Assembly: GCA_028712895.1 (NCBI GenBank)
Contig: JAQTPL010000001.1
Location: 3,681-67,680 of the forward strand
From: a bacterium
GTDB lineage: Bacteria; CAYTYR01; UBA6262
DNA length: 64,000 nt
Direction of reading: 5' to 3'
A program made the position numbers and the translations under genes. Shown one piece after another: positions 1-63,469 of the stretch; the stretch's first letter is position 1, and each line of letters begins with the position of its first letter. A model generated the notes under the pieces. The model was not told where the DNA came from. It searched no databases and worked only from the letters and a program-made list of their open reading frames with translations.

Positions 1-275
1 CCTTCCAGCTCCAGCTTCTTTTTCACCAATTCGGTCATGTGTACAAAATCCCGGCGATCCAGGCCCAGATTATCAAAATCAAGATCCTCCGAGAACCGGT
101 TATGCTCATAAGCGATCCGCAATGCCGTACCACCCATAAAGGCTAATTCATGACCATATTTTGAATCAAAAATAATAGACAATATCTTATATTGCAGGTA
201 CTCCCGCATAATATTCTTCTTGAACGGCTTAAGATAGTCTGGATAAAAAGTTTCAATTTGTTTAAGATCAAGCAT
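1..275 (-). CDS. AbiEii/AbiGii-type nucleotidyltransferase toxin (DUF1814-like), N-terminal part; gene continues past window start
   Basis: Minus-strand translation from ATG at 275-273 reads MLDLKQIETFYPDYLKPFKKNIMREYLQYKILSIIFDSKYGHELAFMGGTALRIAYEHNRFSEDLDFDN..., a typical AbiEii N-terminus. Its start overlaps the stop of the upstream AbiEi-like gene by 8 nt. Confidence 0.6.
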   Translation of the reverse strand, partial: MLDLKQIETFYPDYLKPFKKNIMREYLQYKILSIIFDSKYGHELAFMGGTALRIAYEHNRFSEDLDFDNLGLDRRDFVHMTELVKKKLELE

Positions 276-885
276 TCTGCAGGTACTCCATAAAATTATT
301 TATTCTTCTCAAAAGCTGCTTCTGGCCCATTCTTTCCGCCAGTGCTCTCAGCTTGTCCCGATCACCTTCCTTCAGGAACAGCTCAGCGTTAAACCGGAGC
401 TTAGTAAAATCGTCACTGCTCTTTAGATCGGGATGGATATAGAAATAATCTAATATGGCCTTTTCCCGGCAGGCAATTTTGCCATGCTTGCCGTTATGAT
501 CGATCAGCTCATAGCCGAAAAAAAGGCCGGGCTTCAGCGAGTGATACTTAAAATTGGCCATAGGGGTCTTAAAAGCGCGCGTTACCAGGGTACTGGCAGA
601 GGTTATCCCATACACGCTTTCCGGGATGAGATGGTAAAAAGACAGGGCAGATTCAAAAGAAACATAGGAAGGGTCATATATTTTATTAGCCAAGATAAAC
701 AGGGCAAATTCATCCATCTTTACATCAGTGAAAATATAATAACCCCTGATCACCTTTCTGATATAACCCTTTTCCTGCCAGTTATTCAGTCTGCGGCGAT
801 GAAATTTCGGGTCTACGCTGTGTATATCTGCCAGCGAGAATATGGTAAAATCCTGTAAAGCCTGCTGAAACTCTAAAAACCTCAT
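268..885 (-). CDS. AbiEi-family antitoxin / COG5340-type transcriptional regulator (type IV TA system)
   Basis: The 205-aa ORF has the N-terminal wHTH-like MRFLEFQQALQDFTIFSLADI...FHRRRLNNWQEKGYIRKVIRGYYIF typical of AbiEi antitoxins. It overlaps the downstream nucleotidyltransferase gene. Confidence 0.6.
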   Translation of the reverse strand: MRFLEFQQALQDFTIFSLADIHSVDPKFHRRRLNNWQEKGYIRKVIRGYYIFTDVKMDEFALFILANKIYDPSYVSFESALSFYHLIPESVYGITSASTLVTRAFKTPMANFKYHSLKPGLFFGYELIDHNGKHGKIACREKAILDYFYIHPDLKSSDDFTKLRFNAELFLKEGDRDKLRALAERMGQKQLLRRINNFMEYLQNA

Positions 886-3344: not shown

Positions 3345-3434
3345 AACCTGCCTAATTTAATTAGTATTGCCTGCCCCCGCGGCTTTGATTTTCCAGTTTC
3401 TCGGACAAATCATCATGGGTGTTCCCGGATTTAA

Positions 3435-3512
3435 CCGGACACCTACGCGGTGTCTGAAAAGGGTCTACGATGTTGATAGTTTAGCCCTGACCCCGTTTTT
3501 CACAAGTTCCGG
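3435..3512. repeat. REP-like composite repeat (copy A), left boundary of the AT-rich island
   Basis: Contains the hairpin module gacacc-tacgc-ggtgtc and the module ggggtcagggctaaactatcaaca (as reverse complement). Its reverse complement recurs at 11984-12082, with module variants at 10696, 10800, 11634, 12779 and 14053. Confidence 0.7.
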
Positions 3513-3656
3513 AGCTTCTCAAGGTAACTGATGGGTGTGGCGCCGACTGGATAATCTTTATAGCAATCATTAAACTTAAGATTGTGGAAAATCTTTCAAG
3601 GGATATCTATCTCTTCCCTTGACAATCACCTAAATAGGTGACCCCGGTGTATTTCC

Positions 3657-4607
3657 TTACAGGTTTATAATTAATCCTTGAATCTTAGGAGGAATCGGGC
3701 CAAAAATATCCTTTAATTCCTTTGATATATACATGTTTCTTCTATGATTTCTAAATCCTTTATAAACTGCTTCGACATCAGAATCAATCAATATACCTAA
3801 AACCGCTTGAAATGGAGTAATTGAATGGGCAGATAAGATATATTTATATTTATCGGATTCAAAATTCTGTTCTAAATAAGTTACTTCCTTATTACAAATA
3901 TTAAGAACCTCATATATTTCATTAACTAATCCATGCATATTTTGAGGTAAATTAGGCAAGCCCCATGTCTTCTGTATAAGCACACATATTCTTGCTTTTC
4001 GAGCAAAGTCTTCGAAGTTATTATCAGGACAAATATTAGCCACCTCATCTATATGTCCAAGGATTTGATCTGATTGTTCAAGCATTGCTTTTATTTGATG
4101 GGCTATTCTAAAGCGAGGCCAAAGTAATTTATCTCCTTTATATAATATATCATGAGTGGCTTTTGCCCAACCATGCTGCAGGAATGTTTTAATTTGTAAC
4201 TCAAAAGGTCTCATCAAATATTCTTTTCCTGGCACACTTACTTGTGGATTATAGTTAATATGCAGATGTAAATCGTCATAGATGAAATTAGAATATTCTT
4301 TGCTACGGTTCTTAATTTGTTTAATCACAATGAACTGTTTTTCTACATCTCTTTTTATTAATTCAACCTGTACATGTGTCGCGACTACAATAGTAGCAGC
4401 ATACAAGTCAATAATATCGTCATGATTAGCATATTTGCCAGTCTCTATTTTTTGGGCAAAACTTTCCTTCTCCTTAATTCTGCTGCTAAATAAACCATCA
4501 AAACGTAAGGAAATTGAATCCAAAACAGGATCAATTTCCCTTTTTAATAATTCTAGTTTTTGCTGAATATTATCATATATTTCTGATATCCTGCTTGAAA
4601 TAATCAT
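3657..4607 (-). CDS. RelA/SpoT-domain nucleotidyltransferase (small-alarmone-synthetase-like, toxSAS-like) with a ~150-aa C-terminal extension
   Basis: The N-terminal half carries the ordered synthetase motifs SRIKEKESFAQK (R-x-K-x3-S-x3-K), DLYAATIVV (D-x2-G-x-R-ii), YDDLHLHINY and FELQIKTFLQHGWAKATHDILYKG (E-x-Q-x-R-T...W-A...H..YK). The start ATG overlaps the stop of the DUF262 gene (ATGA). The gene is very AT-rich. Confidence 0.6.
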   Translation of the reverse strand: MIISSRISEIYDNIQQKLELLKREIDPVLDSISLRFDGLFSSRIKEKESFAQKIETGKYANHDDIIDLYAATIVVATHVQVELIKRDVEKQFIVIKQIKNRSKEYSNFIYDDLHLHINYNPQVSVPGKEYLMRPFELQIKTFLQHGWAKATHDILYKGDKLLWPRFRIAHQIKAMLEQSDQILGHIDEVANICPDNNFEDFARKARICVLIQKTWGLPNLPQNMHGLVNEIYEVLNICNKEVTYLEQNFESDKYKYILSAHSITPFQAVLGILIDSDVEAVYKGFRNHRRNMYISKELKDIFGPIPPKIQGLIINL

Positions 4608-5602
4608 TTTGTTTTAATCAACTTTTTAATAATAATTTTTCTAGACTCTCTGTTAACTTTATCATTAGGTTGAGCGCTAATTGCGTTTTGATAAATTGTA
4701 ACATCTTTTTCTAAGGATTTTATATCGACTTTTTTAATAAACTTAAGTATATTCTTTCTAGAAGCTTCAAAATCAATATCTTCAGCTATTAATTCTAATA
4801 ATGCTGCCCATAAAGAGTAAAAATCAGAATAATTACTTAATCTATTTGAGCATGTATCCAATTTAAGCTTAATAATAGATCCTTTTACCTTATCAAACTC
4901 TTTTCTCGCTTTTTTTTCATTAGGAATTTCTTCATCATATTCAGCATAATAATTATCCAATAAGTCCTTATCTGTAGTGGAAATCCCATGCATCGTTAAA
5001 AAGAACAATTCTGAGATAAATTCAACATCTTTCATCCTTCTTATTGTTGCGGGCCTACTAATGCAAATATCTTCCCAAAAAGGATCGTCTGCAACTTCCG
5101 TTATAAGAGATATAAATCTTCCAGAATATTTAGCATGCCTTAATTCTTGAGCTGTCAACTTCAAAACATTTCTATTCAATCTATCAAATGTATCGTTAAT
5201 TATTTCTTCTTCTGCGCCCTGGAGATTTTCAACTGAAATTTCATATCCCCATAATTTACTTCTATTATCATTTGATAATTCTCCAAAATATTTACCATTC
5301 AGTTCTAAATTGCCAAAATCATCTGGTATAGCTATTTTACCCTGTACAAAATCCATAATAGATTCAAGGCGCTGTTTCCCATCAACTACATAATATGTAA
5401 CAACTCCATTTGGAGCAACAATAGTATTTAGAAATATTGAAGGAGAAGGATAATTTCTCATAATAGTATCTATGAAAAAGCGCTTATACGATTTGGTCCA
5501 AACACTTCTCCTTTGGTATGGAGGATCTAAAACCATTAACTTTCTATTAATTAAATCAATAAACCATGCAATATTTTGCCTGTTCAATGTTCTTTGTATC
5601 AT
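4604..5602 (-). CDS. DUF262 (ParB/Srx-fold, GmrSD N-terminal-like) domain protein
   Basis: The 332-aa protein carries DPPYQRRSVWTKSYKRFFIDTIMRNYPSPSIFL and VVDGKQRLESI, the DGQQR-type DUF262 signature. No DUF1524/HNH half is present. It is translationally coupled to the RelA/SpoT-like gene. Confidence 0.65.
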   Translation of the reverse strand: MIQRTLNRQNIAWFIDLINRKLMVLDPPYQRRSVWTKSYKRFFIDTIMRNYPSPSIFLNTIVAPNGVVTYYVVDGKQRLESIMDFVQGKIAIPDDFGNLELNGKYFGELSNDNRSKLWGYEISVENLQGAEEEIINDTFDRLNRNVLKLTAQELRHAKYSGRFISLITEVADDPFWEDICISRPATIRRMKDVEFISELFFLTMHGISTTDKDLLDNYYAEYDEEIPNEKKARKEFDKVKGSIIKLKLDTCSNRLSNYSDFYSLWAALLELIAEDIDFEASRKNILKFIKKVDIKSLEKDVTIYQNAISAQPNDKVNRESRKIIIKKLIKTK

Positions 5603-5708
5603 TTTAGTTCCTCCTCATTTTTCTTATTTTGAAAAATGTGTCTTATAACTGGGAATATAGCACTTATTTCTTTTAGATAGTATTGTTTGATGCCCCGGAT
5701 ATCCAAAA

Positions 5709-6827
5709 TTAAATTGTGCATTGTCCTTCATTGCTAATTACTACATTTTGTTTCTTCCAATCTTTAGGCAATAAAGTATCTTCATTATTACTAAAATAAG
5801 AAGCCCTTACTATTCCCACTAGATCTTGTATTTCATTTGCATATTGATTACCTTTGTTATATCGTTCTATAATTTCTCTTTCTAACCAATACTCTGATTT
5901 ATACATATCTTCTTTATTTTCATATTCTTTTAAAATATTATTATAGTCATAAAGTATTTTATTTACTCCAATTTCAACGCTTTTATTATCAGAAATTATT
6001 CTATCAGTTTTCACTTGCATAATACCTAATGTTTTTGAATGACCTACTTTAAATAGTAAAACCTCAAGCATACGAATAAGCTTAGGCCTATTAAAAGACT
6101 CATAAATCATAATTGAATAAATTAATGCTTTTAATTTTGCATTTGTTACTTTATCTTCTATTATAGATTTGTATTTATGCTGATAAGAGAGAAACTTATA
6201 ATCAATATATTTGCTCTTCCTTTTTTCTGTATCTCTTGGTGACAGTTTAATATTATTAAACAATTCATATAGAAAAAATATAATTATTAACCATAATTCG
6301 TTACCAATTGTTTGCATATCTGGAAATAAGTAACTTCTTACAACTATTAGCTTCCTGTATATAAAATATGATATAAATATTATTATTACTGCACATAATA
6401 ATTCCTTATTCCAGTCAAGTAACTTTGCTCTTCCGAGAGCTAAGTTAAATAGCAATCTAAATGCTACATAGTATACGCTTATCAAGTAAATACTATTTAC
6501 ATATATATCCATCGAAAGTGCATATAATATAACTGAAATTATAATTATATATACAACTGGCGAAAATATTCTATAAATAAAATTAAACATTGGTGCTTCA
6601 TCTGCCTTCATAAATATTGATAGTTCCATATATCCCTTTGAGTATGACTGTTTACCAATAATGTTAATCAGAATAAACTGAAGTAATGCTAATCCAAAAT
6701 GTAATGTATAAGTATCCCAACTCATTTTGATTTCACCTACTTTATTAAATAGACCATGCAACGTGGTCAGGCACTGAAACGTGAAAGTAATTCTTTGTCT
6801 GGATTCAGAATTAGTATTGTGTCTCAC
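5709..6827 (-). CDS. integral membrane protein with a C-terminal soluble domain (hypothetical)
   Basis: The 372-aa ORF likely starts at the internal Met (MSWDTYTL, ~6725). It has about 6 hydrophobic helices followed by a ~150-aa polar domain. The domain bears a weak ESF...GIMQ...YN.G resemblance to lytic transglycosylases, which is uncertain. A 10-nt gap separates it from the upstream protease gene. Confidence 0.5.
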   Translation of the reverse strand: MRHNTNSESRQRITFTFQCLTTLHGLFNKVGEIKMSWDTYTLHFGLALLQFILINIIGKQSYSKGYMELSIFMKADEAPMFNFIYRIFSPVVYIIIISVILYALSMDIYVNSIYLISVYYVAFRLLFNLALGRAKLLDWNKELLCAVIIIFISYFIYRKLIVVRSYLFPDMQTIGNELWLIIIFFLYELFNNIKLSPRDTEKRKSKYIDYKFLSYQHKYKSIIEDKVTNAKLKALIYSIMIYESFNRPKLIRMLEVLLFKVGHSKTLGIMQVKTDRIISDNKSVEIGVNKILYDYNNILKEYENKEDMYKSEYWLEREIIERYNKGNQYANEIQDLVGIVRASYFSNNEDTLLPKDWKKQNVVISNEGQCTI

Positions 6828-6836
6828 ATATTAATT

Positions 6837-7724
6837 CTAAATTTGTATAAATGAAGAACCTAAATGGTTTTCAATAATTTTACCTGCTTGTGTTGCCGAT
6901 AAGGTATGAATAAAAGTATGATGAACCGTTAAGACAGCATCTTGAAGTTCATTATCTTGCTCTAACATAGATATTCTTAATCCAACTTCTATACATCGTT
7001 CTGGAGGTAAATGTCTAGAATGGGATAAAGTTACATCATGACTACCTATTACTTCCACAATTCTATTAGCAGTATCGGAACGCAGTGGTTCTGACAAATC
7101 AGCTAGCATCCCTGTCCCTAGCCACTTTTTTACCAAATATTCAGACCAATTAATAGCTTTTTGGCATTCTCCAATAAAAGCAGGTGGGTATTTAGCTATT
7201 ATCGGTTGCCAAACTGGTATTTTTGCAGGGTTTGCCTTTATTTCATTATATGCTTTTTCAAACTCTTCAATAACGCCTTGGGCTGGAATACCATTAAATT
7301 GTGGGTCAATTGGACCAAGACTGGAGTGTTTACCCATTAATATTTCCTTGCAAGCGCAAGCAATCATAGTGCCCGCAGACATAGCAAGTTGAGGGACAAT
7401 TGCTCTTATATTTGTCCCAAACAAACTACGTAAATAGTCTACTAATGATTCTGTAGCAGCTGTTTCACCACCGGGAGTATGTAAAATTAAATCTAGTCCT
7501 TTCGATTTGTCCATACCTTTTAAAGTAGACATGAAACCATTTTTATCATTATCATTAATCGAAGCGACTAAAGGATGCATTTGTTTTTGAAGCCAACCAG
7601 AATAATACGCTATAACATTACGCCCTGTCAGTTCATAAAGCTTTTTGAGATATTTTCTTCTAATAATGTCAAAGGTGCTTCCTGATCCTTTTATTTCTTC
7701 TAATAACTCTTCCCAGTTTCCCAT
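6837..7724 (-). CDS. Clp-fold serine protease, SDH/S49-like family
   Basis: The 295-aa protein carries ILHTPGGETAATESLVDYLRS and AMSAGTMIACAC (a Ser nucleophile in a GxSxG-like context), typical of ClpP-fold SDH-type proteinases. Confidence 0.5.
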   Translation of the reverse strand: MGNWEELLEEIKGSGSTFDIIRRKYLKKLYELTGRNVIAYYSGWLQKQMHPLVASINDNDKNGFMSTLKGMDKSKGLDLILHTPGGETAATESLVDYLRSLFGTNIRAIVPQLAMSAGTMIACACKEILMGKHSSLGPIDPQFNGIPAQGVIEEFEKAYNEIKANPAKIPVWQPIIAKYPPAFIGECQKAINWSEYLVKKWLGTGMLADLSEPLRSDTANRIVEVIGSHDVTLSHSRHLPPERCIEVGLRISMLEQDNELQDAVLTVHHTFIHTLSATQAGKIIENHLGSSFIQI

Positions 7725-7882
7725 TTGCCACTCCTATCAGATAACGTATTATCCGTAATCAATATTTTCCACTTATCATCGGTTAGAAAATTACTAATAT
7801 TCCTTAAGTCTGTTTCTTTCCCATGGCCAATACCTAATATTTTGTATAGTTCTATTATCTTTGTTTTAGTAATATTGCGCAT
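7700..7882 (-). CDS. small hypothetical protein (60 aa), first gene of the protease/membrane-protein cluster
   Basis: This ORF-track entry is AT-rich like its neighbours and overlaps the protease start by 25 nt. No family was recognised. Confidence 0.3.
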   Translation of the reverse strand: MRNITKTKIIELYKILGIGHGKETDLRNISNFLTDDKWKILITDNTLSDRSGKWETGKSY

Positions 7883-7922
7883 TGATTACTCCTTAATAAT
7901 TATTTTAGGACAGATTTTTTGA

Positions 7923-8384
7923 TTATCTAGAGTTGTATTCTATCATTAATTTATCTACCAACTTAAAGACTCTTTTATTAATCTGACATTCCCAAAAAGT
8001 TAAAACCTTCCATCCTAAACTCTTTAATTCTTTATGTTTCCTTTTATCTCTCTCAATATTATTTCTAAACTTGTTGCTCCAAAATCTAATATGTGTCTTC
8101 GGCTTTGAAGGATTACAATATGGGCAGCGATGCCAATAACATCCGTTGACGAATATTGCAATTTTCTTATTTAGATAGCATATATCAGGCCTTCCTAATA
8201 CCTTTTTGCAGTGAAGCCTATACCCTCTTAATCCAGCCTCTCTTAGAGCCTTTCTAAGTATCAGCTCAGGCTTTGTGTTCTTTGCCTTAATAGCACTCAT
8301 TATACGAGATGTAATTTCTTTTTTAGGGATTGGAGCGCGACCATCTCTAATGTATTGATACCCCTTGTTACTATTTAAATACAT
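7923..8384 (-). CDS. vsr: very short patch repair endonuclease Vsr
   Basis: The 153-aa protein carries SRIMSAIKAKNTKPELILRKALREAGLRGYRLH and GRPDI...KIAIFVNGCYWHRC, matching the Vsr catalytic and zinc motifs. It lies directly downstream of the C5-MTase. Confidence 0.85.
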   Translation of the reverse strand: MYLNSNKGYQYIRDGRAPIPKKEITSRIMSAIKAKNTKPELILRKALREAGLRGYRLHCKKVLGRPDICYLNKKIAIFVNGCYWHRCPYCNPSKPKTHIRFWSNKFRNNIERDKRKHKELKSLGWKVLTFWECQINKRVFKLVDKLMIEYNSR

Positions 8385-9683
8385 TTATAAAGCCTCATCA
8401 AGAGTCTGGAATAGTGCTTTCCCAATTTTATCAACTACACCAACAACTAATGCATTTCCCATAAAAAAGGCACGTCTTGAATCAGGGACACCTTTTGTAT
8501 GATTAACCGGGAACATATTTAATTTTTCAAGCTCAATCGGAGTAAGCCGTCTATATTTACCAATCTTAGTTTTAATTACATGCTTAAATCTTGATGGTGT
8601 GGCTCCTCCCTCGCCCGTAATGATAGTCCTGGAAGGCTTATCAAGAAGATCTGGGAAAGACATCGAGCCTTCAGAATAATTGTATTCAAAACCTCCTGAG
8701 CTTTTTCGTAGTTCTTTTTTTGCACCTTTAAGATATTTCCATCTTGGGATATCCTTTTCGTCAATATAGTACTCTAGAGGCACTTCACTCTCTTTTTGTA
8801 ATATTTGTCCTAGCGTTTGCCTTTCCCCTGAATATTTTGGTGCAGTATGAATAGTGAATACTTCCCTATCTTTCATGATCCCTGTGTTCTGAAATGGTGA
8901 CATATTACGATCACCTTTAAAAACACCTGATATTTCAAATAAGTCTCCTTCCAATTTAAAAAATCCTTCGTTTATAGGTATGTCAGTTTTATTTTGGATA
9001 ATTGGGAAAGCCTTGGTAATAGGTCCATCTGATAAAAACCAATAAGCAAGATGCTCTCGTTCTATAATTCTTTTATAAATCTCTGAACCTTTTTTATATG
9101 CTAGTATATATACTCGCCTTCTTCTTTGTGGCATTCCATAGTCTGCAGCATTTATTACGCGCCATTCTACTATATATCCTAGGTCAGACAAGGAAGCTAA
9201 CATTATTCCAAAATCACGGCCTCGCTGTTTTGCAGGTGATTTTAGTAGTCTATCTACATTTTCTAAGAAGAGATAGTTTGGTGAATGTTGTCCTTTCTCT
9301 TTTAAAATTCTATGAATTTGCCACCACAGGACACCTTTTTTCCCTACAAGGCCCTCAGCCTTACTTAAAGTGCGCGCCACCGAATAATCCTGACATGGGA
9401 ACCCACCTACAAGCAAATCATGGTCAGGTATATCATTAATTGATACTTTTGTTATATCCTCATTAGAATGCCCCTTACTACTAAACCGCAATTTATAAAT
9501 ATCAGACGCGTGTTGCTGTTTTGTCGTCGGTTCCCATTGATTGCTCCAAACAACCTCATAATTTCCTTCGTTTTTCTTGCCAGGCTCTCCTTCTAGGCCA
9601 AGCCTAAAACCACCTACCCCTGCAAATAATTCTATTACCTTCAAAGGCTTTCCTTTTGTCATATAACAAGTCTCCATAATCAA
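8385..9683 (-). CDS. dcm: DNA (cytosine-5)-methyltransferase
   Basis: Motif I is LKVIELFAGVGGFRLGLE, motif IV is GGFPCQDYSVA, motif VI is FLENV, and motif X is GNALVVGVVDKI near the C-terminus. The true start is probably at MTKGKPLKV. Confidence 0.85.
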   Translation of the reverse strand: MIMETCYMTKGKPLKVIELFAGVGGFRLGLEGEPGKKNEGNYEVVWSNQWEPTTKQQHASDIYKLRFSSKGHSNEDITKVSINDIPDHDLLVGGFPCQDYSVARTLSKAEGLVGKKGVLWWQIHRILKEKGQHSPNYLFLENVDRLLKSPAKQRGRDFGIMLASLSDLGYIVEWRVINAADYGMPQRRRRVYILAYKKGSEIYKRIIEREHLAYWFLSDGPITKAFPIIQNKTDIPINEGFFKLEGDLFEISGVFKGDRNMSPFQNTGIMKDREVFTIHTAPKYSGERQTLGQILQKESEVPLEYYIDEKDIPRWKYLKGAKKELRKSSGGFEYNYSEGSMSFPDLLDKPSRTIITGEGGATPSRFKHVIKTKIGKYRRLTPIELEKLNMFPVNHTKGVPDSRRAFFMGNALVVGVVDKIGKALFQTLDEAL

Positions 9684-9700
9684 ATAATTAATAATGCTTT

Positions 9701-10561
9701 CTACTTATTTCCAATATAGAATATCTTGATGAGGTCCTCTGTTGAGATAGGTGATACCCCTCGTCCTCTAGCGAATCCATCTATGAATTTACCTATCATG
9801 ATTTGATTATCCTCAATTAAAAAAGCTAAAAATGCAATAAATGTAAGGACTGTATTTATTCTGCCTGTGTTACGAAGCCAATCTGGTTTTTTTTCTTTCT
9901 CTTGAGCTTTTTTTATGGTTCTATAGAAATACTTGCAGTCTTCATTCCATGCGATTAATTCAATATAATATAATAAAGCTTCAAATGACATATCTGCAAT
10001 TTGAGGTATAATTTTTGAAAATTGTTCATAAGCCTTTTGAGGTGGTATATATTCATAAAATGGCTCCATATATTTTGAACCTTCATTTTCTTGCATTGCC
10101 CCATATAAATAAGTAATATCCCTACTATCACATGCACATTCTTCATTTGCCTTTTTAGTATGATCACACATATATGCCATTCTATATAACATAACACCAA
10201 ATAATCTTATAAGCTCCTTTTTTGACTCATCGCATTCCTTCAGTTCTTGATACATTTTGCCTGCAATATTGCCAAACGATAAATTATCCATTCTTTTTTT
10301 ATCAAGCGTGATTAACTCTGGTCTAAAATCCCATGGCCGGGATGATGCTCTTTCTGCCTCTTTTCCTGGATATTGAATCCTTAAACTCTCGTTCTTTTTA
10401 GTAAACTTTATTAATATTTGCTTCTCTTTCTTTCCATAAATCAACCCTACTCTTGGTAAATCTCTAACCCATAAAATATTGTATTTTCGTTTTTCTGTAG
10501 ATGGTGCTCTTATTCCACTACTTTCTAAGTTAGTAGGCAAGATATCCCGAACATTAAGCAT
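9701..10561 (-). CDS. putative type II restriction endonuclease partner of the C5-MTase (no recognisable family)
   Basis: The 286-aa AT-rich ORF sits 17 nt upstream of the MTase in the same orientation. The call rests on position alone. Confidence 0.35.
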   Translation of the reverse strand: MLNVRDILPTNLESSGIRAPSTEKRKYNILWVRDLPRVGLIYGKKEKQILIKFTKKNESLRIQYPGKEAERASSRPWDFRPELITLDKKRMDNLSFGNIAGKMYQELKECDESKKELIRLFGVMLYRMAYMCDHTKKANEECACDSRDITYLYGAMQENEGSKYMEPFYEYIPPQKAYEQFSKIIPQIADMSFEALLYYIELIAWNEDCKYFYRTIKKAQEKEKKPDWLRNTGRINTVLTFIAFLAFLIEDNQIMIGKFIDGFARGRGVSPISTEDLIKIFYIGNK

Positions 10562-10873
10562 TTAATACTCCTCACCGTTTTTAATTAGCAGATTTAAGTG
10601 GTTTCATTTTTTTACTGCCCCATACACTGTACCTAATTGTATTCTACGCCAAAGTACATCGATATACTTGAAGCCGGCGGATTGCAGTGAAACCCAACGG
10701 GGTCAGCCCTTGAAATGTGAAATGATTCCCATGACTGTCAGTTCCAAACCGTAAACCCTCTGCTGTTAGATTCGTAATTAATTTTGACCCATTTCCCATC
10801 TACGCGGTGTAGAATCTGGGGACATAATACTCATTCTACTTAATTAGTATTGCCTTCCCGGAATTCCCAAGGA

Positions 10874-11590
10874 TTACACCATTGCTTTTATGTGAGAATC
10901 TACTATTCTTTCTCCTAATAGCTCTATAGCTTTCCTGGCAATTTCAATATCCATTGGAATCTTTTCAATAACACTTCTCTTAAATGACAAACCGAATCTC
11001 ATCCCCCCATTTGTTTCTATAGAAATAGCAATTGTTTTAGTTAAAAAATACTTTACTATCATAGCCAAACATAACACCCATCCAATTAAAGGTATAATAT
11101 CTGTAAAAATGATTCTATGCCAATTGCTTAATAGGTCAATTTGCATTGTATAAATATTATAATATCTCTGAAATAAGTTATATCCTATGCTTAATATCGC
11201 TATTATTGGCCCTATAATAATGAACTGTACTGGTTTTATAAATCCGCAACTAGCGCTTGCTACAGATTTAAGTGACACAACATGATTCACTTCACAAAAA
11301 AAGCTTTTACTTTTAAAACTAATTTCCTTATTTGTAACTAACAGCTGCGTTACCATATCAAATTTAAGCAATGTTAATAACCATGAAAATATACCGGGAT
11401 GTCTTCCTTTAATTTCTATTATTATATTCGATTCTACAGAAGGCGTGTCGTTTATCTTAAATTTCTTTAGAACAAATACTTTCCCAGGAAAGTTAAATTG
11501 ACTACTAGCTTTTTTAGCTAACCAGAATCCAATTATTAAGACTATTACTCCTATTGATATCAATACAATTAAATAAGTTTGTCCGTACAT
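10874..11590 (-). CDS. hypothetical membrane protein (238 aa)
   Basis: It has an N-terminal TM helix and further hydrophobic segments. It is AT-rich and flanked by REP-like repeats. Confidence 0.45.
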   Translation of the reverse strand: MYGQTYLIVLISIGVIVLIIGFWLAKKASSQFNFPGKVFVLKKFKINDTPSVESNIIIEIKGRHPGIFSWLLTLLKFDMVTQLLVTNKEISFKSKSFFCEVNHVVSLKSVASASCGFIKPVQFIIIGPIIAILSIGYNLFQRYYNIYTMQIDLLSNWHRIIFTDIIPLIGWVLCLAMIVKYFLTKTIAISIETNGGMRFGLSFKRSVIEKIPMDIEIARKAIELLGERIVDSHIKAMV

Positions 11591-11701
11591 TTGATTCTCC
11601 TTTCTAATTATTTGAAATCATAAATAACGAAAACAACGGGGTCAGCCCTTGAAACTTGAATCCGTAACCCTATTTTCCACTTCGGAAGTGGAAAGACGGT
11701 T

Positions 11702-11953
11702 CTATTCTAGCAGAAGAGCCTTAATCTCCGCAAGTTTCCTTTGATAATCAATTCTATCTTCAACAAAAGGCTTATATGTTTCCGGATCAATCTCCAGTAG
11801 TTCCGTAAATTCACAAATCTTAGGCTTATTATACGAAATAAACTCTTGGTACGATGATGAATGCCAGGAATTAGGATGTTCCACTAAATTTGCCGTGGCT
11901 GGATTTAAATGGATATACCTGGTCAAATGTAAGAGCTGGGCATCTGTCTCCAC
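11702..11953 (-). pseudogene. truncated RAYT/IS200-like transposase (C-terminal 83 aa only)
   Basis: QLLHLTRYIHLNPATANLVEHPNSW...YQRKLAEIKALL aligns at about 50% identity with the C-terminus of the full-length RAYT at 12089..12745. The HuH N-terminal half is absent. Confidence 0.6.
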
Positions 11954-11983
11954 TAAAACATTTTTGAACTTGACCTAATAATT

Positions 11984-12082
11984 GGGGTCAGGGCTAAACT
12001 ATCAACAAAAACTTCCCCCCGTACACCCTATCAGACACTCCTCCACCCCGTAGACCCTTTCAGACACCGCGTAGGTGTCCGG
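11984..12082. repeat. REP-like composite repeat (copy B), inverted relative to copy A with a 42-nt internal duplication
   Basis: This is the reverse complement of 3435-3512, apart from an inserted partial repeat (ccgtacaccctatcagacac...). Confidence 0.7.
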
Positions 12083-12088
12083 AGGGGT

Positions 12089-12745
12089 TCATGATTCTAA
12101 AATAAGATGCTTTATCTGTGCCAGCTCTCTTTGATATCCTACGCGATCTTTTACAAAAGATGTATAATCCTCAGCTTTAATATCAACGACATCTGTAAAT
12201 CTGCAGAATGATTTGCTGTTACTAATGCCAGTATATTCTTGATAAGAAGAATTTATCCACTCTTTTGGATCATTTACGATGAAAGATGTCACCGGATTCA
12301 AATGTACATATCTGGTCAGGTGCAATAATTGAGTGTCATCCTTAACCAGGACATTCTTAAATCTGCTCTCCCATAATGGACCCTTCCGTCCATGTTTTTT
12401 ATTGAAATATTTGGTATAGCTATTTAGAATATTATTCATGAACTTAGAAATACCTTCATCCTTTGTTTGTTTCAATATAAGATGCAGATGTGTAGGCATT
12501 AGACAATAAGCAATTGTTTCAACAGACTCTTCTTCGGCAGAGATTTGATCATTAAGTATTCTCTGCTTAGGCTCGGAGAGTTCTAGGAACTTAGCGAACC
12601 TTATTGCTGGTTTTTCCGCATGATAATAGCGGATCACTTCTATCATTCTGTTAAATTCTTCCTGGTCATTGAAAATCACATACCCGGCAATACTTTTCGT
12701 AAAAACATGGTAAACCTGCCCATTTGCCAGCGCTTCTTTTCTCAT
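12089..12745 (-). CDS. REP-associated tyrosine transposase (RAYT) / IS200-like TnpA
   Basis: The HuH motif is CLMPTHLHLIL and the catalytic Tyr region is LHLTRYVHLNPV. The protein is 218 aa. Confidence 0.8.
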   Translation of the reverse strand: MRKEALANGQVYHVFTKSIAGYVIFNDQEEFNRMIEVIRYYHAEKPAIRFAKFLELSEPKQRILNDQISAEEESVETIAYCLMPTHLHLILKQTKDEGISKFMNNILNSYTKYFNKKHGRKGPLWESRFKNVLVKDDTQLLHLTRYVHLNPVTSFIVNDPKEWINSSYQEYTGISNSKSFCRFTDVVDIKAEDYTSFVKDRVGYQRELAQIKHLILES

Positions 12746-12940
12746 TTATTAGTTTACATCCGCATCTATTATTCTTAAACCCTTTCAGACACCTATCCTC
12801 CACTAAAACGTTGGCGAACTCCCAAGGGTCGCGCGGTGTCTTAAGGGTTAATCTACAAGGTTGACAGTTTGCTATTATGAGCTATCCGGAATTCCCGGAT
12901 AACTCAAAACACCATGTGCAAAAATTGCACATACTTGATT

Positions 12941-13408
12941 TTATAATCTAAAATTAAGTTCTAGTTGCGGATTTTCCTTCTTAACTTCTATCAAGATTTG
13001 CTTCAATAGTTGTATGCCATCTTTAAAAGCCTTATGGCTCTCTTTTTTGCTCACTAATATGCCGGCTTCATAGGTCATTTCGTTTCTTTTCCTGCGCATA
13101 GTCTCGAATTGGTCAGTGATATCTCTGTAACGTTTCCCCAATATGGCACTGGTTATTTCTACCACAGTTCGATGTTGTGCTCCATCATCAGGAACATACC
13201 CGTTGCTCAATAATAAAGCTCTACCTGCCTTGAGCATGGCCATATACGCCATAACATAAGTTGCCCGTTCGGCAATCGGTAATGTCTTTTGCGCTTCCTG
13301 CAAATCCAATATTGATTGTTTCAGTAACGCCTCTATCTGAACTATACCGGCCTTCTGTTTTCTTAATTTTCCTTCCTTAAGCAGCCTTTCTATGAGTTTT
13401 TGCGGCAT
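12941..13408 (-). CDS. HEPN domain protein (partner of the adjacent nucleotidyltransferase)
   Basis: It carries a PF05168-like LKAGRALLLSNGYVPDDGAQH motif. It overlaps the MNT gene by 32 nt. Confidence 0.55.
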   Translation of the reverse strand: MPQKLIERLLKEGKLRKQKAGIVQIEALLKQSILDLQEAQKTLPIAERATYVMAYMAMLKAGRALLLSNGYVPDDGAQHRTVVEITSAILGKRYRDITDQFETMRRKRNEMTYEAGILVSKKESHKAFKDGIQLLKQILIEVKKENPQLELNFRL

Positions 13409-13964
13409 TTACCTCCCCTTTCAGTATTATTATTTTCCCGTTAGTGATCAGGTTAAGAAAACTGCCAGATTTAGCTGTTTCTTTCTTAAATTCGTCTTTA
13501 TCATAATGGGTGAAATTGATTTCGCGACCTATTTTGGATTCTAAATTGCGGACCTTGCGGGTGAATTCGTCCAAGGGGAATTGTCCAACTACTAATAGAT
13601 CTATATCCGAGGATTTATTTTCGTTTTCTTTGGCATATGAGCCATATATGAAAGCCAGGGATATACCTTTATATTTTGCTATTATATTTCTTAATGATCC
13701 CTCTATACCTTCTGTCTTGAAGATTATCTCTTTAATTTCTTTGTATAAAGGGTATTCTTTGCTGAGGGAATAATATTTTGAATTGCCGCGGATGAACGAT
13801 TTGAAAAGGCCTTCTTTTTCCAGCTTATTCAGCTCCCTGGATAAATTACCGGGGTCGTCATTGATAATGGCTGCTATTTCCCGGACATAATAATTCTCAT
13901 CAGGATGGCTAAAGAAATAGGTTAAAACGCTCTTTCTCAATTTGGTGTTGATAAGTATAGACAA
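13377..13964 (-). CDS. nucleotidyltransferase (MNT) with N-terminal wHTH
   Basis: It has the signature GSYAKENENKSSDIDLLVV (GS...DxD) and an N-terminal ArsR-like helix YYVREIAAIINDDPGNLSRELNKLEKEGL. Confidence 0.7.
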   Translation of the reverse strand: MSILINTKLRKSVLTYFFSHPDENYYVREIAAIINDDPGNLSRELNKLEKEGLFKSFIRGNSKYYSLSKEYPLYKEIKEIIFKTEGIEGSLRNIIAKYKGISLAFIYGSYAKENENKSSDIDLLVVGQFPLDEFTRKVRNLESKIGREINFTHYDKDEFKKETAKSGSFLNLITNGKIIILKGEVNAAKTHRKAA

Positions 13965-14159
13965 GCTTATATCCTCATATTGTATTTATTACATCATACG
14001 TTGTAAATAATACAACAGTCATGCTATTTTGTCAAGTTCTTCAGTCGGAAGAAACGGGGTTAGTCCTTGAAACTTGAAACTCTCTCCCCACCCAAAACTA
14101 CCCGCCAAGACCCTCCACCACCCTCCAATAAGCTTTGGCGGGCTAAAGAGCTATGGCGG

Positions 14160-14549
14160 TTATAATAGCCAGTACTCTTTAGGCGAAATAATCTTAATGC
14201 TTTTATACTGTTTTAATACAAGCAGATCCTTATCGCCAGTAATAATAACATCTATCCCATTAGCATCTGCATCTGCCAAGATATGATTATCATCCTTGTC
14301 CCGGCAGCAATCAGGGATGTTTTTCCCAGCAACACCTTCCTGGAAATGTTTTTCTATAAATACAGTCATATCCTTTATTATGGAAGCGGTAAACTTGAAT
14401 TTGGTCCTGAAATTATGGTGGAATTCTTTAAGGATATACTGGGTATAGAATACTTCGTGGGTGTTGACCGCGCTTTGAACTATGTCGTAACAGTTTCCAT
14501 TACTCAGGAAAGCCGCAATTAGGACATTGGTGTCAAAAAGGATCTTCAT
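14160..14549 (-). CDS. PIN-domain toxin (VapC-like)
   Basis: KILFDTNVLIAA places an Asp at position 6. DADANGIDVIITGDKDL supplies the C-terminal acidic residues. Confidence 0.7.
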   Translation of the reverse strand: MKILFDTNVLIAAFLSNGNCYDIVQSAVNTHEVFYTQYILKEFHHNFRTKFKFTASIIKDMTVFIEKHFQEGVAGKNIPDCCRDKDDNHILADADANGIDVIITGDKDLLVLKQYKSIKIISPKEYWLL

Positions 14550-14767
14550 GAGATCTTTTCCAGGATCTCATCTTCTGAAAGCACAATACCTCTCTTCGCT
14601 GCCTCCAGCATGGCTTTTTTGCGCAACTCATCAAATTCGGTCTTAAAAAAGTAATCCTTCAGGGCCTTGCGCACTACTTCACTGATATTGGCGTTTTCTT
14701 TCTTGCTATTATCTTTAAGCTTGCGGAGTATTGCGTCCGGCAGGCTTATGGATACACTGTTTCTCAT
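14546..14767 (-). CDS. ribbon-helix-helix (CopG-like) antitoxin
   Basis: The 73-aa ORF overlaps the PIN start by 4 nt. ISLPDAILRKLKD is a beta-strand followed by helices, as in RHH folds. Confidence 0.6.
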   Translation of the reverse strand: MRNSVSISLPDAILRKLKDNSKKENANISEVVRKALKDYFFKTEFDELRKKAMLEAAKRGIVLSEDEILEKIS

Positions 14768-14884
14768 ATTAATACCCTCCTGTATTACAATGTAGCACAG
14801 TATTGTCTATTTGTCAAGAAATAAACAATCATTTCGTTAATTATCTTTTTTGACTATTAGAATTTATCGAATAGTTGGTTACAA

Positions 14885-15199
14885 TTACTTCTTTTCTTTA
14901 AGTTTGGCTATGACATCGGCGGTTTTCATTAAATTCCTGCCTTCTTCGGTGACCACTAAATTAAAAAAGTCACATCGCATACAATTGCTGACCTTTCGGG
15001 CAAAAGAGCCCTGGATCTTGGAGTCACAAAAAGTCCCGGCGATCGCCCAGCAAACACGCCCGCCATTTATGCCGCCATGTACACCAAAGACACGAGTATT
15101 TGTGGCTGCCGGACATACGCCTAATTCATTAACCTTGCTGCCACCAGGCTCCCGGCCGCACCTTTTTAATTCCCAGCAGTTGATTTTCAATATTGGCAT
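14885..15199 (-). CDS. small cysteine-rich protein, paralog 1 (unknown family)
   Basis: The 104-aa protein has 7 Cys in the pattern NCWELKRCGRE...GVC...GVHGG.NGGRVCWAIAGTFC...NCMRC. It shares about 45% identity with 34140..34439. Confidence 0.55.
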   Translation of the reverse strand: MPILKINCWELKRCGREPGGSKVNELGVCPAATNTRVFGVHGGINGGRVCWAIAGTFCDSKIQGSFARKVSNCMRCDFFNLVVTEEGRNLMKTADVIAKLKEKK

Positions 15200-34439: not shown

Positions 34440-34487
34440 ATTCGATCATCTTCCTCTGTTTAAAATGAGGGATGTTACTAAATAGAA

Positions 34488-63256: not shown

Positions 63257-63469
63257 TAATCCTCCAACAAGCTCTGGCGGACTAAAGAGCGTTGGCGGAC
63301 GCGGCGAAAATCGTGTATATAATAGCTTGAATTTGCTGTAAGCAAATTCACCCGCCGATCTTTTTTGAGGGCCGAACGTTTTCTACACTGGCATCAGCGG
63401 CCGCGCTCGCCTCTTATCCAATGTATAGATCAGGGAACCCGTCATTATTTTGAGCGAGCTTGTCGAGAG

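What the first reader, a model, noticed from the sequence alone, without database searches (positions are those of the whole stretch)
3345..14800. ~11 kb AT-rich accessory island packed with defense, TA and transposase genes
Seen in sequence:
- The interval has markedly lower GC than the flanking genes (TspO and MATE to the left, HD-GYP to the right).
- It is delimited and internally punctuated by a shared repeat family.
- In minus-strand order it contains PIN/RHH, MNT/HEPN, RAYT plus a RAYT fragment, a membrane protein, R-M-Vsr, a small/protease/membrane trio, and DUF262/RelA-SpoT.

Inference:
- This is a classic defense-island architecture, so other uncharacterised ORFs here (10874..11590, 9701..10561, 7700..7882) are prime candidates for immunity functions.
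- The AbiEi/AbiEii pair at 1..885 shows the left flank is also TA-rich.
Basis: seen in the sequence. Interest (0 to 1): 0.6.

Follow-up and report, generated by a model that had tools for sequence, protein, structure and literature searches.

The report
AT-rich defence island, undescribed DUF262–toxSAS pair
This ~11 kb stretch is a real, foreign-looking cluster of anti-phage and toxin–antitoxin genes in an uncultured bacterium; the island itself is ordinary, but it carries a strictly conserved gene pair (a ParB-like DNA sensor next to a RelA/SpoT-type toxin enzyme) that usually sits beside DNA methylases and that I could not find described as a defence system.

Summary
The compositional island is real. 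GC is 0.344 at 3345-14800 against 0.470 elsewhere, and per-gene GC3 is 0.29 against 0.54 (p=2e-7). The domain calls hold: RelA/SpoT, DUF262, SDH protease, Vsr, Dcm, RAYT plus fragment, MNT/HEPN (PADLOC PDC-M05), PIN/RHH, and AbiEi/AbiEii on the flank.

- The repeats are two or three motif families. They mark the left edge and internal gaps, not the right edge.
- The foreign block probably ends near 14100.
- The 'small/protease/membrane trio' is not a unit. The membrane protein is a stand-alone, membrane-anchored lytic-transglycosylase-like protein that recurs in other defence islands.
- ORF 9701-10561 is very probably the restriction enzyme, judging from C-protein/MTase/Vsr context elsewhere.
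- ORFs 10874-11590 and 7700-7882 have no evidence of an immunity role.

Main result: DUF262 + RelA/SpoT-like is an obligate pair. It was adjacent in 59 of 60 informative metagenomic loci and fused in the 60th. The Rel part has an intact alarmone-synthetase-fold active site and is closest to CapRel. In 36 of 42 loci the pair sits in a string with a DNA methyltransferase, and 14 of those have no recognisable restriction enzyme. It is not Menshen, PANGU, GmrSD or PD-T4-2.

No syntenic relative was available, so presence/absence and the exact junctions remain untested.

The parts
3345..3656 (.). Left junction spacer. It holds a 20-nt direct-repeat copy (3357-3376) and an inverted REP cluster (3435-3509), which includes the hairpin GACACC-N5-GGTGTC and the arm GGGGTCAGGGCT.
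   Evidence: short-read contigs from three runs break at 3614-3640
3657..4607 (-). RelA/SpoT-like nucleotide pyrophosphokinase (toxSAS-type, 316 aa) with a C-terminal helical domain of unknown function
   Evidence: Pfam RelA_SpoT 1.2e-10. Profile against PDB: best match CapRel 7ZTB, 7e-6. AF2 pLDDT 89; Foldseek matches RelP/RelQ at TMt 0.6-0.73. Invariant K45, S49, D67, E136-x-Q-x-K-T (K53 >=90% conserved)
4604..5602 (-). ParB-like DUF262 protein (NsnA-like, 332 aa). Its stop overlaps the Rel start by 4 nt.
   Evidence: Pfam GmrSD_N 1.2e-20. PADLOC NsnA 1.7e-32 over the full length, PD-T4-2_A 2.9e-20. QRxxxW and DGKQR motifs read in the sequence. Obligate partner of Rel
5709..6725 (-). Membrane-anchored lytic-transglycosylase/lysozyme-like protein (338 aa, about 4 N-terminal TM helices)
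6837..7724 (-). ClpP-fold SDH-type serine protease (295 aa)
   Evidence: Pfam SDH_protease 3.8e-20. phrog_11747 1e-96. 39-52% identical relatives in temperate phages and plasmids
7700..7882 (-). 60-aa ORF overlapping the protease start by 25 nt; its status as a gene is uncertain
   Evidence: No hits. Positional analogues upstream of protease homologues show no sequence similarity
7923..8384 (-). Vsr very-short-patch-repair endonuclease
   Evidence: TIGR00632 1.5e-35, above cutoff; Pfam Vsr
8385..9683 (-). C5-cytosine DNA methyltransferase (type II)
   Evidence: Pfam DNA_methylase 3.7e-63; PADLOC MTase_II PDLC03329 2.5e-165; PCQ and ENV motifs read in the sequence
9701..10561 (-). Probable cognate type II restriction endonuclease (286 aa, unannotated family)
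   Evidence: No family or PDB hit. Homologues sit in C-protein/R/M/Vsr or C-protein/R + convergent M arrangements
10689..10859 (.). Spacer holding an AACGGGGTCAGCCCTTGAAA motif copy (10689-10721), a REP-like remnant CTACGCGGTGTAG (10808-10821) and the second 20-nt direct-repeat copy (10840-10859)
10874..11590 (-). Membrane protein (238 aa) of a large unannotated family; function unknown
   Evidence: 622 cluster representatives at E<=1e-3. 5 of 30 relatives weakly match DUF6232. No PADLOC or PDB hit
11628..11660 (.). AACGGGGTCAGCCCTTGAAA motif copy, 38 nt upstream of the 238-aa gene start
   Evidence: no hairpin predicted
11702..11953 (-). RAYT C-terminal fragment. It keeps the Y motif and has lost the HUH part.
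   Evidence: About 60% nt identity to 12048-12361; sequence read
11966..12082 (.). REP cluster downstream of the RAYT; inverted partner of 3435-3509
12089..12745 (-). REP-associated tyrosine transposase (RAYT); HUH (HLH) and YVHLNP motifs intact
   Evidence: Pfam Y1_Tnp 7e-9. NCBIfam REP_Tyr_transpos 68.8 bits, below the cutoff of 80. PDB 4ER8 TnpA_REP 9e-4 with both motifs aligned
12776..12845 (.). REP doublet (REPIN-like long hairpin) upstream of the RAYT
   Evidence: DNA fold -13.1 kcal/mol, z=-3.2, 1 of 200 shuffles as good
12941..13408 (-). HEPN-domain protein (toxin partner of the MNT)
   Evidence: Pfam HEPN 8.7e-5; PADLOC PDC-M05B 1.4e-15
13377..13964 (-). wHTH + minimal nucleotidyltransferase (MNT)
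   Evidence: Pfam Polbeta 2.3e-11; PADLOC PDC-M05A 4.8e-49
14046..14078 (.). Last (diverged) copy of the AACGGGGTCAGCCCTTGAAA motif; the rightmost island-specific repeat
14112..14159 (.). Host-type intergenic repeat, also present at 63250-63298; marks the likely true right end of the foreign block
14160..14549 (-). PIN-domain toxin
   Evidence: Pfam PIN_3 1.3e-12; GC3 0.43
14546..14767 (-). Ribbon-helix-helix antitoxin
   Evidence: Pfam RHH_3 8.5e-7; GC3 0.53, host-like

Best explanation
The interval is a horizontally acquired, mosaic defence/toxin-antitoxin island. It lies in the chromosome of an uncultured bacterium, between a 169-aa gene (next to TspO and MATE) and a 104-aa gene/HD-GYP.

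It is a patchwork of independent modules, each with its own distribution elsewhere:
(1) DUF262 + RelA/SpoT-like pair
(2) a stand-alone membrane-anchored lytic-transglycosylase-like protein
(3) an SDH ClpP-fold protease of a phage/plasmid-borne type, possibly with a small upstream ORF
(4) a type II R-M (R - C5-MTase - Vsr)
(5) a membrane protein of unknown function
(6) a RAYT with its own REP hairpins, plus an old RAYT remnant
(7) MNT/HEPN
(8) PIN/RHH, which is compositionally near-native and probably lies outside the foreign block.

Mechanism proposed for the most distinctive module (inferred). The ParB-like DUF262 protein has an intact NTP-binding DGxQR motif and an NsnA-type DNA-binding C-terminal half. 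It would act as a DNA or DNA-modification sensor that controls the co-translated Rel-like pyrophosphokinase. On phage infection the enzyme is unleashed. It then either pyrophosphorylates tRNA 3' ends, as CapRel does, or makes a toxic alarmone and drains ATP, as FaRel and Pag1B do. Either outcome aborts the infection.

Shown here: the obligate pairing, the fusion, the fold, the conserved catalytic residues, the altered acceptor site, and the linkage to DNA methyltransferases and defence genes. Inferred: sensing, activation, the substrate, and anti-phage activity.
For: Island:
- GC and GC3 shift.
- Island-restricted repeats.
- Every module has relatives in unrelated genomes and contexts.
- PADLOC hits for R-M, PDC-M05 and AbiE.

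Pair:
- Adjacent in 4 of 4 exact-context look-ups, including an Omnitrophota MAG and Pedobacter.
- In 59 of 60 informative metagenome loci DUF262 lies directly upstream on the same strand; the 60th (L133) is a 693-aa in-frame fusion.
- The two genes overlap by 4 nt in the window.
- RSH synthetase fold and catalytic motifs are conserved, while the acceptor motif GYRSxH is replaced by an invariant F..DD.
- 36 of 42 loci have a DNA MTase in the same gene string. 33 of 110 neighbour ORFs match one MTase_II family, and 13-14 are BsuBI/PstI REases. Other neighbours include AbiD, Abi_2, SIR2, DUF4238, MzaA and STALD.
- In known systems DUF262 is a DNA-modification sensor (GmrSD, SspE; PMC12065111).
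- A DNA-binding sensor that activates a toxSAS has precedent in PANGU (bioRxiv 10.64898/2026.04.06.716658).
Against: - No relative lacking the island could be found, so acquisition rests on composition and on mosaic distribution only.
- There is no integrase, tRNA or Rfam element in the window.
- The right third is compositionally intermediate.
- For the pair, no experiment exists. In the window itself the pair is separated from the R-M by two unrelated genes.
- The Rel C-terminal domain is not acidic (pI 5.9), unlike the PANGU DNA-mimic domain.
- PADLOC v2 does not classify the pair; the only hits are a weak PDC-S33 match and an orphan NsnA-like match.
- A plain toxin-antitoxin relationship would produce the same gene-order conservation.
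Confidence: 0.75

Rival explanations
1. The core (about 3377-10840 or 3435-12082) is a single mobile unit that arrived in one event. It would be either an integrative element leaving 20-nt att-like direct repeats, or a RAYT/REP-bounded cargo element in which inverted REP clusters act as ends.
For: - The 20-nt direct repeat at 3357 and 10840 brackets exactly the lowest-GC3 genes (0 expected by chance).
- Inverted REP clusters 96-100% identical over 24-35 nt bracket 8.5 kb.
- An intact RAYT sits next to one arm.
- In 64 kb these repeats occur only here.
Against: - There is no integrase or recombinase other than the RAYT.
- As I understand IS200/IS605-type Y1 transposases, they use same-strand subterminal hairpins rather than distant inverted clusters, and RAYT-driven cargo mobilisation has not been shown (my own knowledge).
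- The modules inside have independent distributions elsewhere.
- GC3 inside ranges from 0.20 to 0.33.
- No second copy or empty site was found.
Confidence: 0.2
2. The DUF262 + Rel-like pair is a classical type II toxin-antitoxin (addiction) module. DUF262 would simply neutralise the toxSAS and stabilise the island or the adjacent R-M, with no role in sensing phage.
For: - It is an overlapping bicistronic operon with strict co-occurrence.
- All toxSAS known before PANGU are TA toxins (PMC7229694, PMC11782079).
- The island is rich in TA modules.
Against: - The partner is 332 aa, with a conserved NTP-binding ParB/DUF262 core and a DNA-binding half, unlike small labile antitoxins.
- A stable in-frame fusion exists.
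- In PANGU a DNA-binding partner is an activator, not an antitoxin (bioRxiv 10.64898/2026.04.06.716658).
- The tight, specific linkage to DNA methyltransferases is not expected for a generic TA.
Confidence: 0.25
3. The low GC is native rather than foreign: an old resident AT-rich region, for example under relaxed selection or AT-biased mutation.
For: - No mobility gene or tRNA is present.
- All genes run in the same direction as the neighbouring host genes.
- No absence allele was found.
Against: - A GC3 gap of 0.24 across 12 consecutive genes, with sharp edges.
- The content is exclusively accessory (defence, TA, transposase).
- Each module recurs in unrelated phyla and on phages and plasmids.
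Confidence: 0.05
4. The block is a prophage or phage-satellite remnant.
For: The SDH protease matches phrog_11747 at 1e-96 and occurs in temperate phages. A lysozyme-fold protein lies next to it.
Against: - There are no capsid, terminase, tail, integrase or replication genes.
- The lysozyme-like protein has no PHROG match and is found alone in chromosomal defence islands.
- No DNA similarity to any phage record was found.
Confidence: 0.05

Closest known systems
PANGU type I (Pag1A YejK/NdpA-family nucleoid protein + Pag1B GRel toxSAS; bioRxiv 10.64898/2026.04.06.716658)
   Same: It is a two-gene operon in which a ~330-aa DNA-binding protein is paired with a ~320-aa toxSAS-fold enzyme that carries an extra C-terminal domain. 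It lies in defence islands, and the partner is plausibly a sensor or activator rather than an antitoxin.
   Different: The sensor here is ParB-like DUF262 (Pfam GmrSD_N), not NdpA/YejK. The Rel C-terminal domain is not acidic (pI 5.9). The acceptor-site motif differs from GTP-using synthetases. There is a strong linkage to DNA methyltransferases, which I did not see mentioned in the parts of the PANGU preprint I read.
CapRel(SJ46) and other toxSAS (FaRel2, PhRel; PMC9712102, PMC7229694)
   Same: It is the closest solved relative by profile (7ZTB, E 7e-6). It shares the RSH synthetase fold and has a role in anti-phage abortive infection by pyrophosphoryl transfer.
   Different: CapRel is a single fused toxin-antitoxin that senses capsid protein. 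Here there is no fused or small antitoxin. The partner is a separate DUF262 NTPase-type protein.
Menshen (NsnA-NsnB-NsnC; PMC12065111)
   Same: The DUF262 protein matches the PADLOC NsnA model over nearly its full length (1.7e-32). That means it has both the ParB-DUF262 and the ParBDB-type DNA-binding halves, the predicted sensor.
   Different: There is no NsnB ABC-ATPase and no NsnC inPIN-nuclease. The effector is a Rel-like pyrophosphokinase, directly adjacent.
GmrSD / SspE / PD-T4-2 / Dazbog (other DUF262 defence systems)
   Same: All use a DUF262 N-terminal NTPase domain, which in GmrSD and SspE reads DNA modification. The pair here also shows a genetic link to DNA modification enzymes.
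   Different: There is no DUF1524 HNH nuclease. No PD-T4-2_B or Dzb partner was detected.
Type II R-M with Vsr and C-protein (for example the EcoRII/Dcm-Vsr logic)
   Same: The R - C5-MTase - Vsr order is the same, and Vsr would repair T/G mismatches arising from 5mC deamination.
   Different: The REase belongs to an unannotated family with no Pfam, NCBIfam, PADLOC or PDB match. The window copy lacks the HTH controller gene seen upstream of its homologues.
RAYT/REP systems (E. coli TnpA_REP, 4ER8)
   Same: It is an HUH/Y1 transposase flanked by GTAG-containing REP hairpins and a REPIN-like doublet.
   Different: The RAYT has foreign-like composition (GC3 0.34). In 64 kb its REPs are confined to the island, and one cluster sits at the island edge in inverted orientation.

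Membership tests
Defence island (concept) | Several unrelated defence/TA systems clustered together | tested here: met
   R-M+Vsr, PDC-M05 (MNT/HEPN), PIN/RHH and the DUF262-Rel pair lie within 11 kb, with AbiE on the flank
Defence island (concept) | Variable presence among close relatives | not testable with these tools
   The only relative (L006, HD-GYP 89% aa) is not syntenic. Public contigs of the same organism break at the island
Defence island (concept) | Atypical composition relative to the host | tested here: met
   GC 0.344 against 0.470; GC3 0.294 against 0.536, p=2.4e-7
Menshen (NsnABC) | NsnA: ParB-DUF262 + ParBDB | tested here: met
   PADLOC NsnA 1.7e-32, residues 13-330 on model positions 55-380 of 385
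Menshen (NsnABC) | NsnB ABC-ATPase (AAA_15/DUF3696) immediately downstream | tested here: not met
   The downstream gene is RelA_SpoT. There is no ATPase in the island
Menshen (NsnABC) | NsnC inPIN + nuclease effector | tested here: not met
   No such gene is adjacent
PANGU type I | Sensor of the YejK/NdpA family (IPR007358) | tested here: not met
   The partner matches GmrSD_N only; no NdpA hit in Pfam
PANGU type I | toxSAS-fold effector with an extra C-terminal domain | tested here: met
   SAS fold over residues ~1-195 plus a helical C-terminal domain at 196-316
PANGU type I | Acidic DNA-mimic C-terminal domain; GRel subfamily | tested here: inconclusive
   C-terminal pI 5.9, D+E 16 against K+R 14, so not markedly acidic. 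No GRel sequences were available for comparison
toxSAS toxin-antitoxin | RSH synthetase fold with catalytic RxKxxxSxxxK, D, and ExQ(I/V)(R/K)T | tested here: met
   Invariant K45, S49, D67, E136, Q138, K140, T141; K53 conserved in >=90%. Foldseek matches to RelP/RelQ/CapRel
toxSAS toxin-antitoxin | Small cognate antitoxin, or fused antitoxin domain, that neutralises toxicity | not testable with these tools
   The partner is a 332-aa DUF262 protein. Neutralisation versus activation needs experiments
GmrSD type IV restriction | DUF262 fused or paired with a DUF1524 HNH nuclease | tested here: not met
   No DUF1524 match in the protein or its neighbours
PD-T4-2 | Both A and B components | tested here: not met
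   The A-like component matches at 2.9e-20, but the Rel-like neighbour has no PD-T4-2_B hit
Type II R-M + Vsr | C5-MTase with catalytic motifs, plus a Vsr endonuclease | tested here: met
   dcm TIGR00675 236.7 bits and vsr TIGR00632 122 bits, both above cutoff
Type II R-M + Vsr | Cognate restriction endonuclease | tested here: inconclusive
   No family or structure match. Context in 2 of 2 independent homologue loci is C-protein/R/M. The nuclease motif was not identified
RAYT/REP | HUH motif and catalytic Tyr | tested here: met
   HLH and YVHLNP align with 4ER8. The NCBIfam REP_Tyr_transpos score of 68.8 is below the cutoff of 80
RAYT/REP | Flanking REP hairpins with a GTAG | tested here: met
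   CGTAGACCCTTTCAGACACCGCGTAGGTGTCC lies downstream. The REP doublet upstream folds with z=-3.2
RAYT/REP | REPs dispersed through the host genome | tested here: inconclusive
   No copies in the other ~52 kb of the window. The rest of the genome was not available
MNT/HEPN TA (PADLOC PDC-M05) | Both components adjacent | tested here: met
   PDC-M05A 4.8e-49 and PDC-M05B 1.4e-15; the genes overlap
Family-1 lytic transglycosylase / g-type lysozyme fold | Lysozyme-like fold with a catalytic Glu and GLMQ and AYNxG-type motifs | tested here: met

The most novel reading that the evidence does not exclude
The DUF262 + Rel-like pair is the killing arm of a methylation-linked abortive-infection system, a 'restriction-modification system whose R is a toxSAS'. 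An adjacent methyltransferase marks self DNA. The ParB-like DUF262 NTPase reads unmodified or damaged incoming DNA. It then switches on a pyrophosphokinase with a non-canonical acceptor site, which shuts down translation or drains ATP. This would explain why 14 of 42 loci are M-DUF262-Rel with no restriction enzyme at all. A secondary, less likely novelty is that the inverted REP clusters make the 8.5 kb core a RAYT-mobilisable cargo element.
Probability: 0.2. Interest if true: 0.8.

Novelty: new variant of a known kind. Interest (0 to 1): 0.55.

Why it matters
The island as such is an ordinary example of a well-known phenomenon. Its value is as a pointer to two families.

First, it carries a strictly conserved, widely distributed gene pair (252 tblastn-confirmed stretches in JGI metagenomes; also an Omnitrophota MAG and Pedobacter). 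The pair joins two well-studied immune parts, a DUF262 DNA-modification sensor and a toxSAS effector. I found this combination neither in PADLOC v2 nor in the searchable literature. Its tight coupling to DNA methyltransferases, often without a nuclease, suggests a way of turning self/non-self DNA marking into abortive infection. That idea can be tested directly with a three-gene clone.

Second, the island flags an unannotated, membrane-anchored lytic-transglycosylase-like family that recurs alone next to ApeA, nSTAND, AbiC and RES genes. It is a candidate single-gene lysis-type defence effector.

Tried and rejected
- Presence/absence test. The genome-contig scan with the flanking HD-GYP gave one species-level relative (L006), which has no synteny beyond HD-GYP and ankyrin. 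Exact-protein look-ups returned only fragmented contigs of the same organism, all breaking in or at the island.
- Integration site. There are no tRNA/tmRNA genes and no Rfam families in the window.
- Known mobile element. No megablast match to plasmids or phages.
- Menshen, PANGU, GmrSD and PD-T4-2 membership were all rejected on missing defining components.
- The 'trio' as one system was rejected. The membrane protein occurs without the protease in 2 of 2 contexts, and protease homologues occur without it.
- Homology between the 60-aa ORF and the small ORFs upstream of protease homologues: none found.
- The AACGGGGTCAGCCCTTGAAA motif as a REP hairpin was rejected because no stable fold is predicted.
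- The sigma-70 promoter and terminator scan was not enriched over shuffles.
- The 238-aa ORF had no informative Pfam, PADLOC or PDB link, even through 30 relatives.
- REases hidden in the 'M-only' loci: 10 flanking ORFs were checked and none is a type II REase. They are AbiD, MzaA, a pAgo-associated protein or unknowns.

Full report
OBSERVATION

The compositional anomaly is real and strong. The interval 3345-14800 has GC 0.344 against 0.470 for the rest of the 64 kb, and it is the lowest of all windows of that length. On a per-gene basis, 12 island ORFs average GC3 0.294, and 48 ORFs elsewhere average 0.536 (Mann-Whitney p=2.4e-7).

The shift has two tiers. The eight genes from 3657 to 11590 have GC3 0.20-0.33. 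RAYT, HEPN, MNT and PIN have 0.34-0.43, and the RHH gene is host-like at 0.53.

A 48-nt element just downstream of the PIN gene (14112-14159) recurs at 63250-63298, in host-composition DNA. The clearly foreign block therefore probably ends near 14100, and PIN/RHH may be an older or native neighbour.

REPEATS

(a) A REP cluster of ~60-117 nt lies downstream of the RAYT (11966-12082). It contains the hairpin GACACC-N5-GGTGTC preceded by GTAG, and the arm GGGGTCAGGGCT. A shorter copy in inverted orientation lies at the left edge (3435-3509), and a REPIN-like doublet lies upstream of the RAYT (12776-12845; fold z=-3.2).

(b) A 20-33 nt motif, AACGGGGTCAGCCCTTGAAA, occurs at 10689, 11628 and 14046, with a weak copy at 6753. 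It is always 30-130 nt upstream of a minus-strand gene start, and no hairpin is predicted.

(c) A 20-nt direct repeat at 3357 and 10840 brackets exactly the lowest-GC genes.

All of these are far above chance, and within these 64 kb they are confined to the island. None is at the right edge.

GENE CONTENT

AbiEi/AbiEii lies on the left flank. PADLOC adds that MNT/HEPN corresponds to both components of its candidate system PDC-M05.

The RAYT has intact HUH and Tyr motifs and aligns with E. coli TnpA_REP (4ER8). The fragment is an old paralogue, about 60% identical at the nucleotide level.

ORF 9701-10561 has no family or structure match. Its 65 homologues sit in classic restriction-enzyme positions. 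One set is HTH C-protein -> homologue -> C5-MTase -> Vsr (L180-182). The other is C-protein -> homologue with a convergent N4/N6 MTase (L183-185). I accept it as the cognate REase on context.

ORF 10874-11590 is not an orphan: it has 622 cluster representatives. But neither it nor 30 relatives match anything informative, so there is no evidence of an immunity role.

ORF 7700-7882 has no homologue. Only its 25-nt overlap with the protease start, a geometry also seen on an Acidiphilium plasmid, argues that it is a gene.

THE 'TRIO' IS NOT A UNIT

The membrane protein (5709-6725; the true start is the ATG giving 338 aa, as also called in L086) belongs to a family of at least 127 unannotated proteins. 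In Flavobacterium it stands alone next to nSTAND3 and ApeA genes. In Marinobacter it stands alone next to HNH, AbiC and RES genes. Neither context has an SDH protease.

The SDH protease has full-length relatives in temperate phages, in moron-like positions (for example beside HicAB), and on plasmids beside MbcA/RES and IS1 (phrog_11747 1e-96).

THE DUF262 + REL-LIKE PAIR

This is the most informative part. The two genes overlap by 4 nt. The Rel-like protein has 91 homologues. In the source, a JGI metagenome contig, an Omnitrophota MAG and Pedobacter miscanthi it is always preceded by a 332-357 aa DUF262 gene.

A metagenome scan with the family alignment returned 80 loci. Of the 60 with at least 900 nt upstream, 59 have a DUF262 ORF directly upstream on the same strand. 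The remaining one (L133) encodes both as a single 693-aa frame.

The Rel part has the RSH synthetase motifs conserved (K45, S49, D67, E136-x-Q-x-K-T, Y156-K157 invariant; K53 in >=90% of sequences). The acceptor-site GYRSxH of RelQ is replaced by an invariant F..DD. Its closest solved relative by profile is the tRNA pyrophosphokinase CapRel (7ZTB, 7e-6). The AF2 model (pLDDT 89) superposes on RelP, RelQ and CapRel over residues ~1-195, and is followed by a helical domain with no match.

The DUF262 protein matches the NsnA model end to end and keeps the QRxxxW and DGxQR motifs.

NEIGHBOURHOODS OF THE PAIR

Among 110 non-redundant ORFs within 3.5 kb of the pair in 40 loci, 33 match one PADLOC type II MTase family, and 12-15 match each of three REase families. 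Pfam calls these Eco57I-type MTases (20) and BsuBI/PstI REases (13-14). Abi_2, SIR2, DUF4238 and STALD genes are scattered among them.

Locus by locus, 36 of 42 have a DNA MTase in the same string:
- M-R-DUF262-Rel: 9 loci
- fused M/R-DUF262-Rel: 4 loci
- M-R(ATPase type)-c5-DUF262-Rel: 3 loci
- Dcm-type: 4 loci, two with Vsr and two with Dcm fused to an HhH-GPD glycosylase
- rearranged: 2 loci
- M-DUF262-Rel with no recognisable REase: 14 loci

Checking 10 flanking ORFs of the M-only loci found AbiD, MzaA, a pAgo-associated protein and unknowns, but no type II REase.

In the window, the R-M lies 2.3 kb upstream of the pair, with the protease and the lysozyme-like gene in between.

COMPARISON WITH KNOWN SYSTEMS

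- Menshen needs NsnB and NsnC (PMC12065111); both are absent.
- PANGU type I pairs a YejK/NdpA nucleoid protein with a GRel toxSAS and shows that a DNA-binding partner can be an activator (bioRxiv 10.64898/2026.04.06.716658). Here the sensor family is different, and the Rel C-terminal domain is not acidic.
- GmrSD needs DUF1524, which is absent.
- PD-T4-2 needs a B component, which was not found.
- Full-text searches combining DUF262 with toxSAS, RelA-SpoT, pyrophosphokinase or alarmone found no paper linking them. The toxSAS classification paper does not mention such neighbours in its main text.

I therefore treat the pair as a new variant of the 'DNA sensor + toxSAS effector' kind. It works like PANGU or CapRel in outline, but it is a member of neither.

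LIMITS

No syntenic relative lacking the island was found, so acquisition and the junctions rest on composition and mosaic distribution. Short-read contigs from three runs all break at 3614-3640. This may reflect strain heterogeneity, but it was not tested. No function has been tested experimentally. The host phylum is unnamed: the NCBI record is titled 'MAG: bacterium'.

VERDICT

It contains one conserved module that I could not find described, and one unannotated lysozyme-fold family. Both deserve follow-up.

Noticed in passing
window 23867-24508 (-): A second low-GC3 (0.257) singleton gene sits in host-composition DNA. It has a weak outer-membrane beta-barrel match (below cutoff).
   Followed up: partly
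window 14885-15199 (-) and ~34162-34442: The Cys-rich 104-aa ORF at the island's right border has a paralogue about 19 kb away (64% nt). Neither has any family match.
   Followed up: no
window 14112-14159 and 63250-63298: A ~50-nt intergenic repeat (CCTCCAAyAAGCTyTGGCGGrCTAAAGAGC..TGGCGG) is shared between the spot just downstream of the PIN gene and a distant host region. It may be a host-type terminator or REP.
   Followed up: partly
window 1-64000: 57 of the 60 long ORFs listed across the 64 kb are on the minus strand, an extreme strand bias.
   Followed up: no
L133 314-2392: A natural in-frame fusion of the DUF262 and Rel-like proteins (693 aa, no stop codon).
   Followed up: yes
L136 ~878-2536 and L171 ~206-1981: A C5-methyltransferase fused to an HhH-GPD glycosylase lies directly upstream of the DUF262-Rel pair. 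This looks like a functional analogue of Dcm+Vsr.
   Followed up: partly
window 3614-3640 (L005 versus L086/L087/L088): Short-read contigs from three independent sequencing runs all end here, at the hairpin TCACCTAAATAGGTGA. This could be an assembly-graph branch caused by strain heterogeneity at the island's left junction.
   Followed up: no
L180-L185: The unannotated REase family of ORF 9701-10561 pairs with either a C5-MTase+Vsr or a convergent N4/N6-MTase. In both cases an HTH controller protein lies upstream; the window copy has none.
   Followed up: yes
L186-L189 (phage and plasmid records): SDH-type ClpP-fold protease relatives sit in accessory positions of temperate phages (beside HicAB in Porphyromonas phages) and beside MbcA/RES + IS1 on an Acidiphilium plasmid. 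This hints at an accessory, possibly exclusion or defence, role.
   Followed up: partly
L094-L099: The membrane-anchored lysozyme-fold family occurs alone next to ApeA/nSTAND3 (Flavobacterium) and HNH/AbiC/RES (Marinobacter) genes.
   Followed up: yes
L093, L112, L137: In three loci, a ~220-aa conserved ORF (cluster c5) and a BsuBI-N-terminal/AAA-ATPase fusion protein lie between the methylase and the DUF262-Rel pair. This may be a larger variant of the cassette.
   Followed up: no
window ~950, 14007-14035, 14789-14817: The three TA operons (AbiE, MNT/HEPN, RHH/PIN) share a TTTGTCAAG box (the reverse complement contains TTGACA) at promoter distance from their first genes.
   Followed up: no
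window 17049-17691: Seven 99-nt tandem repeat units lie inside the ankyrin-repeat protein gene to the right of the island.
   Followed up: no
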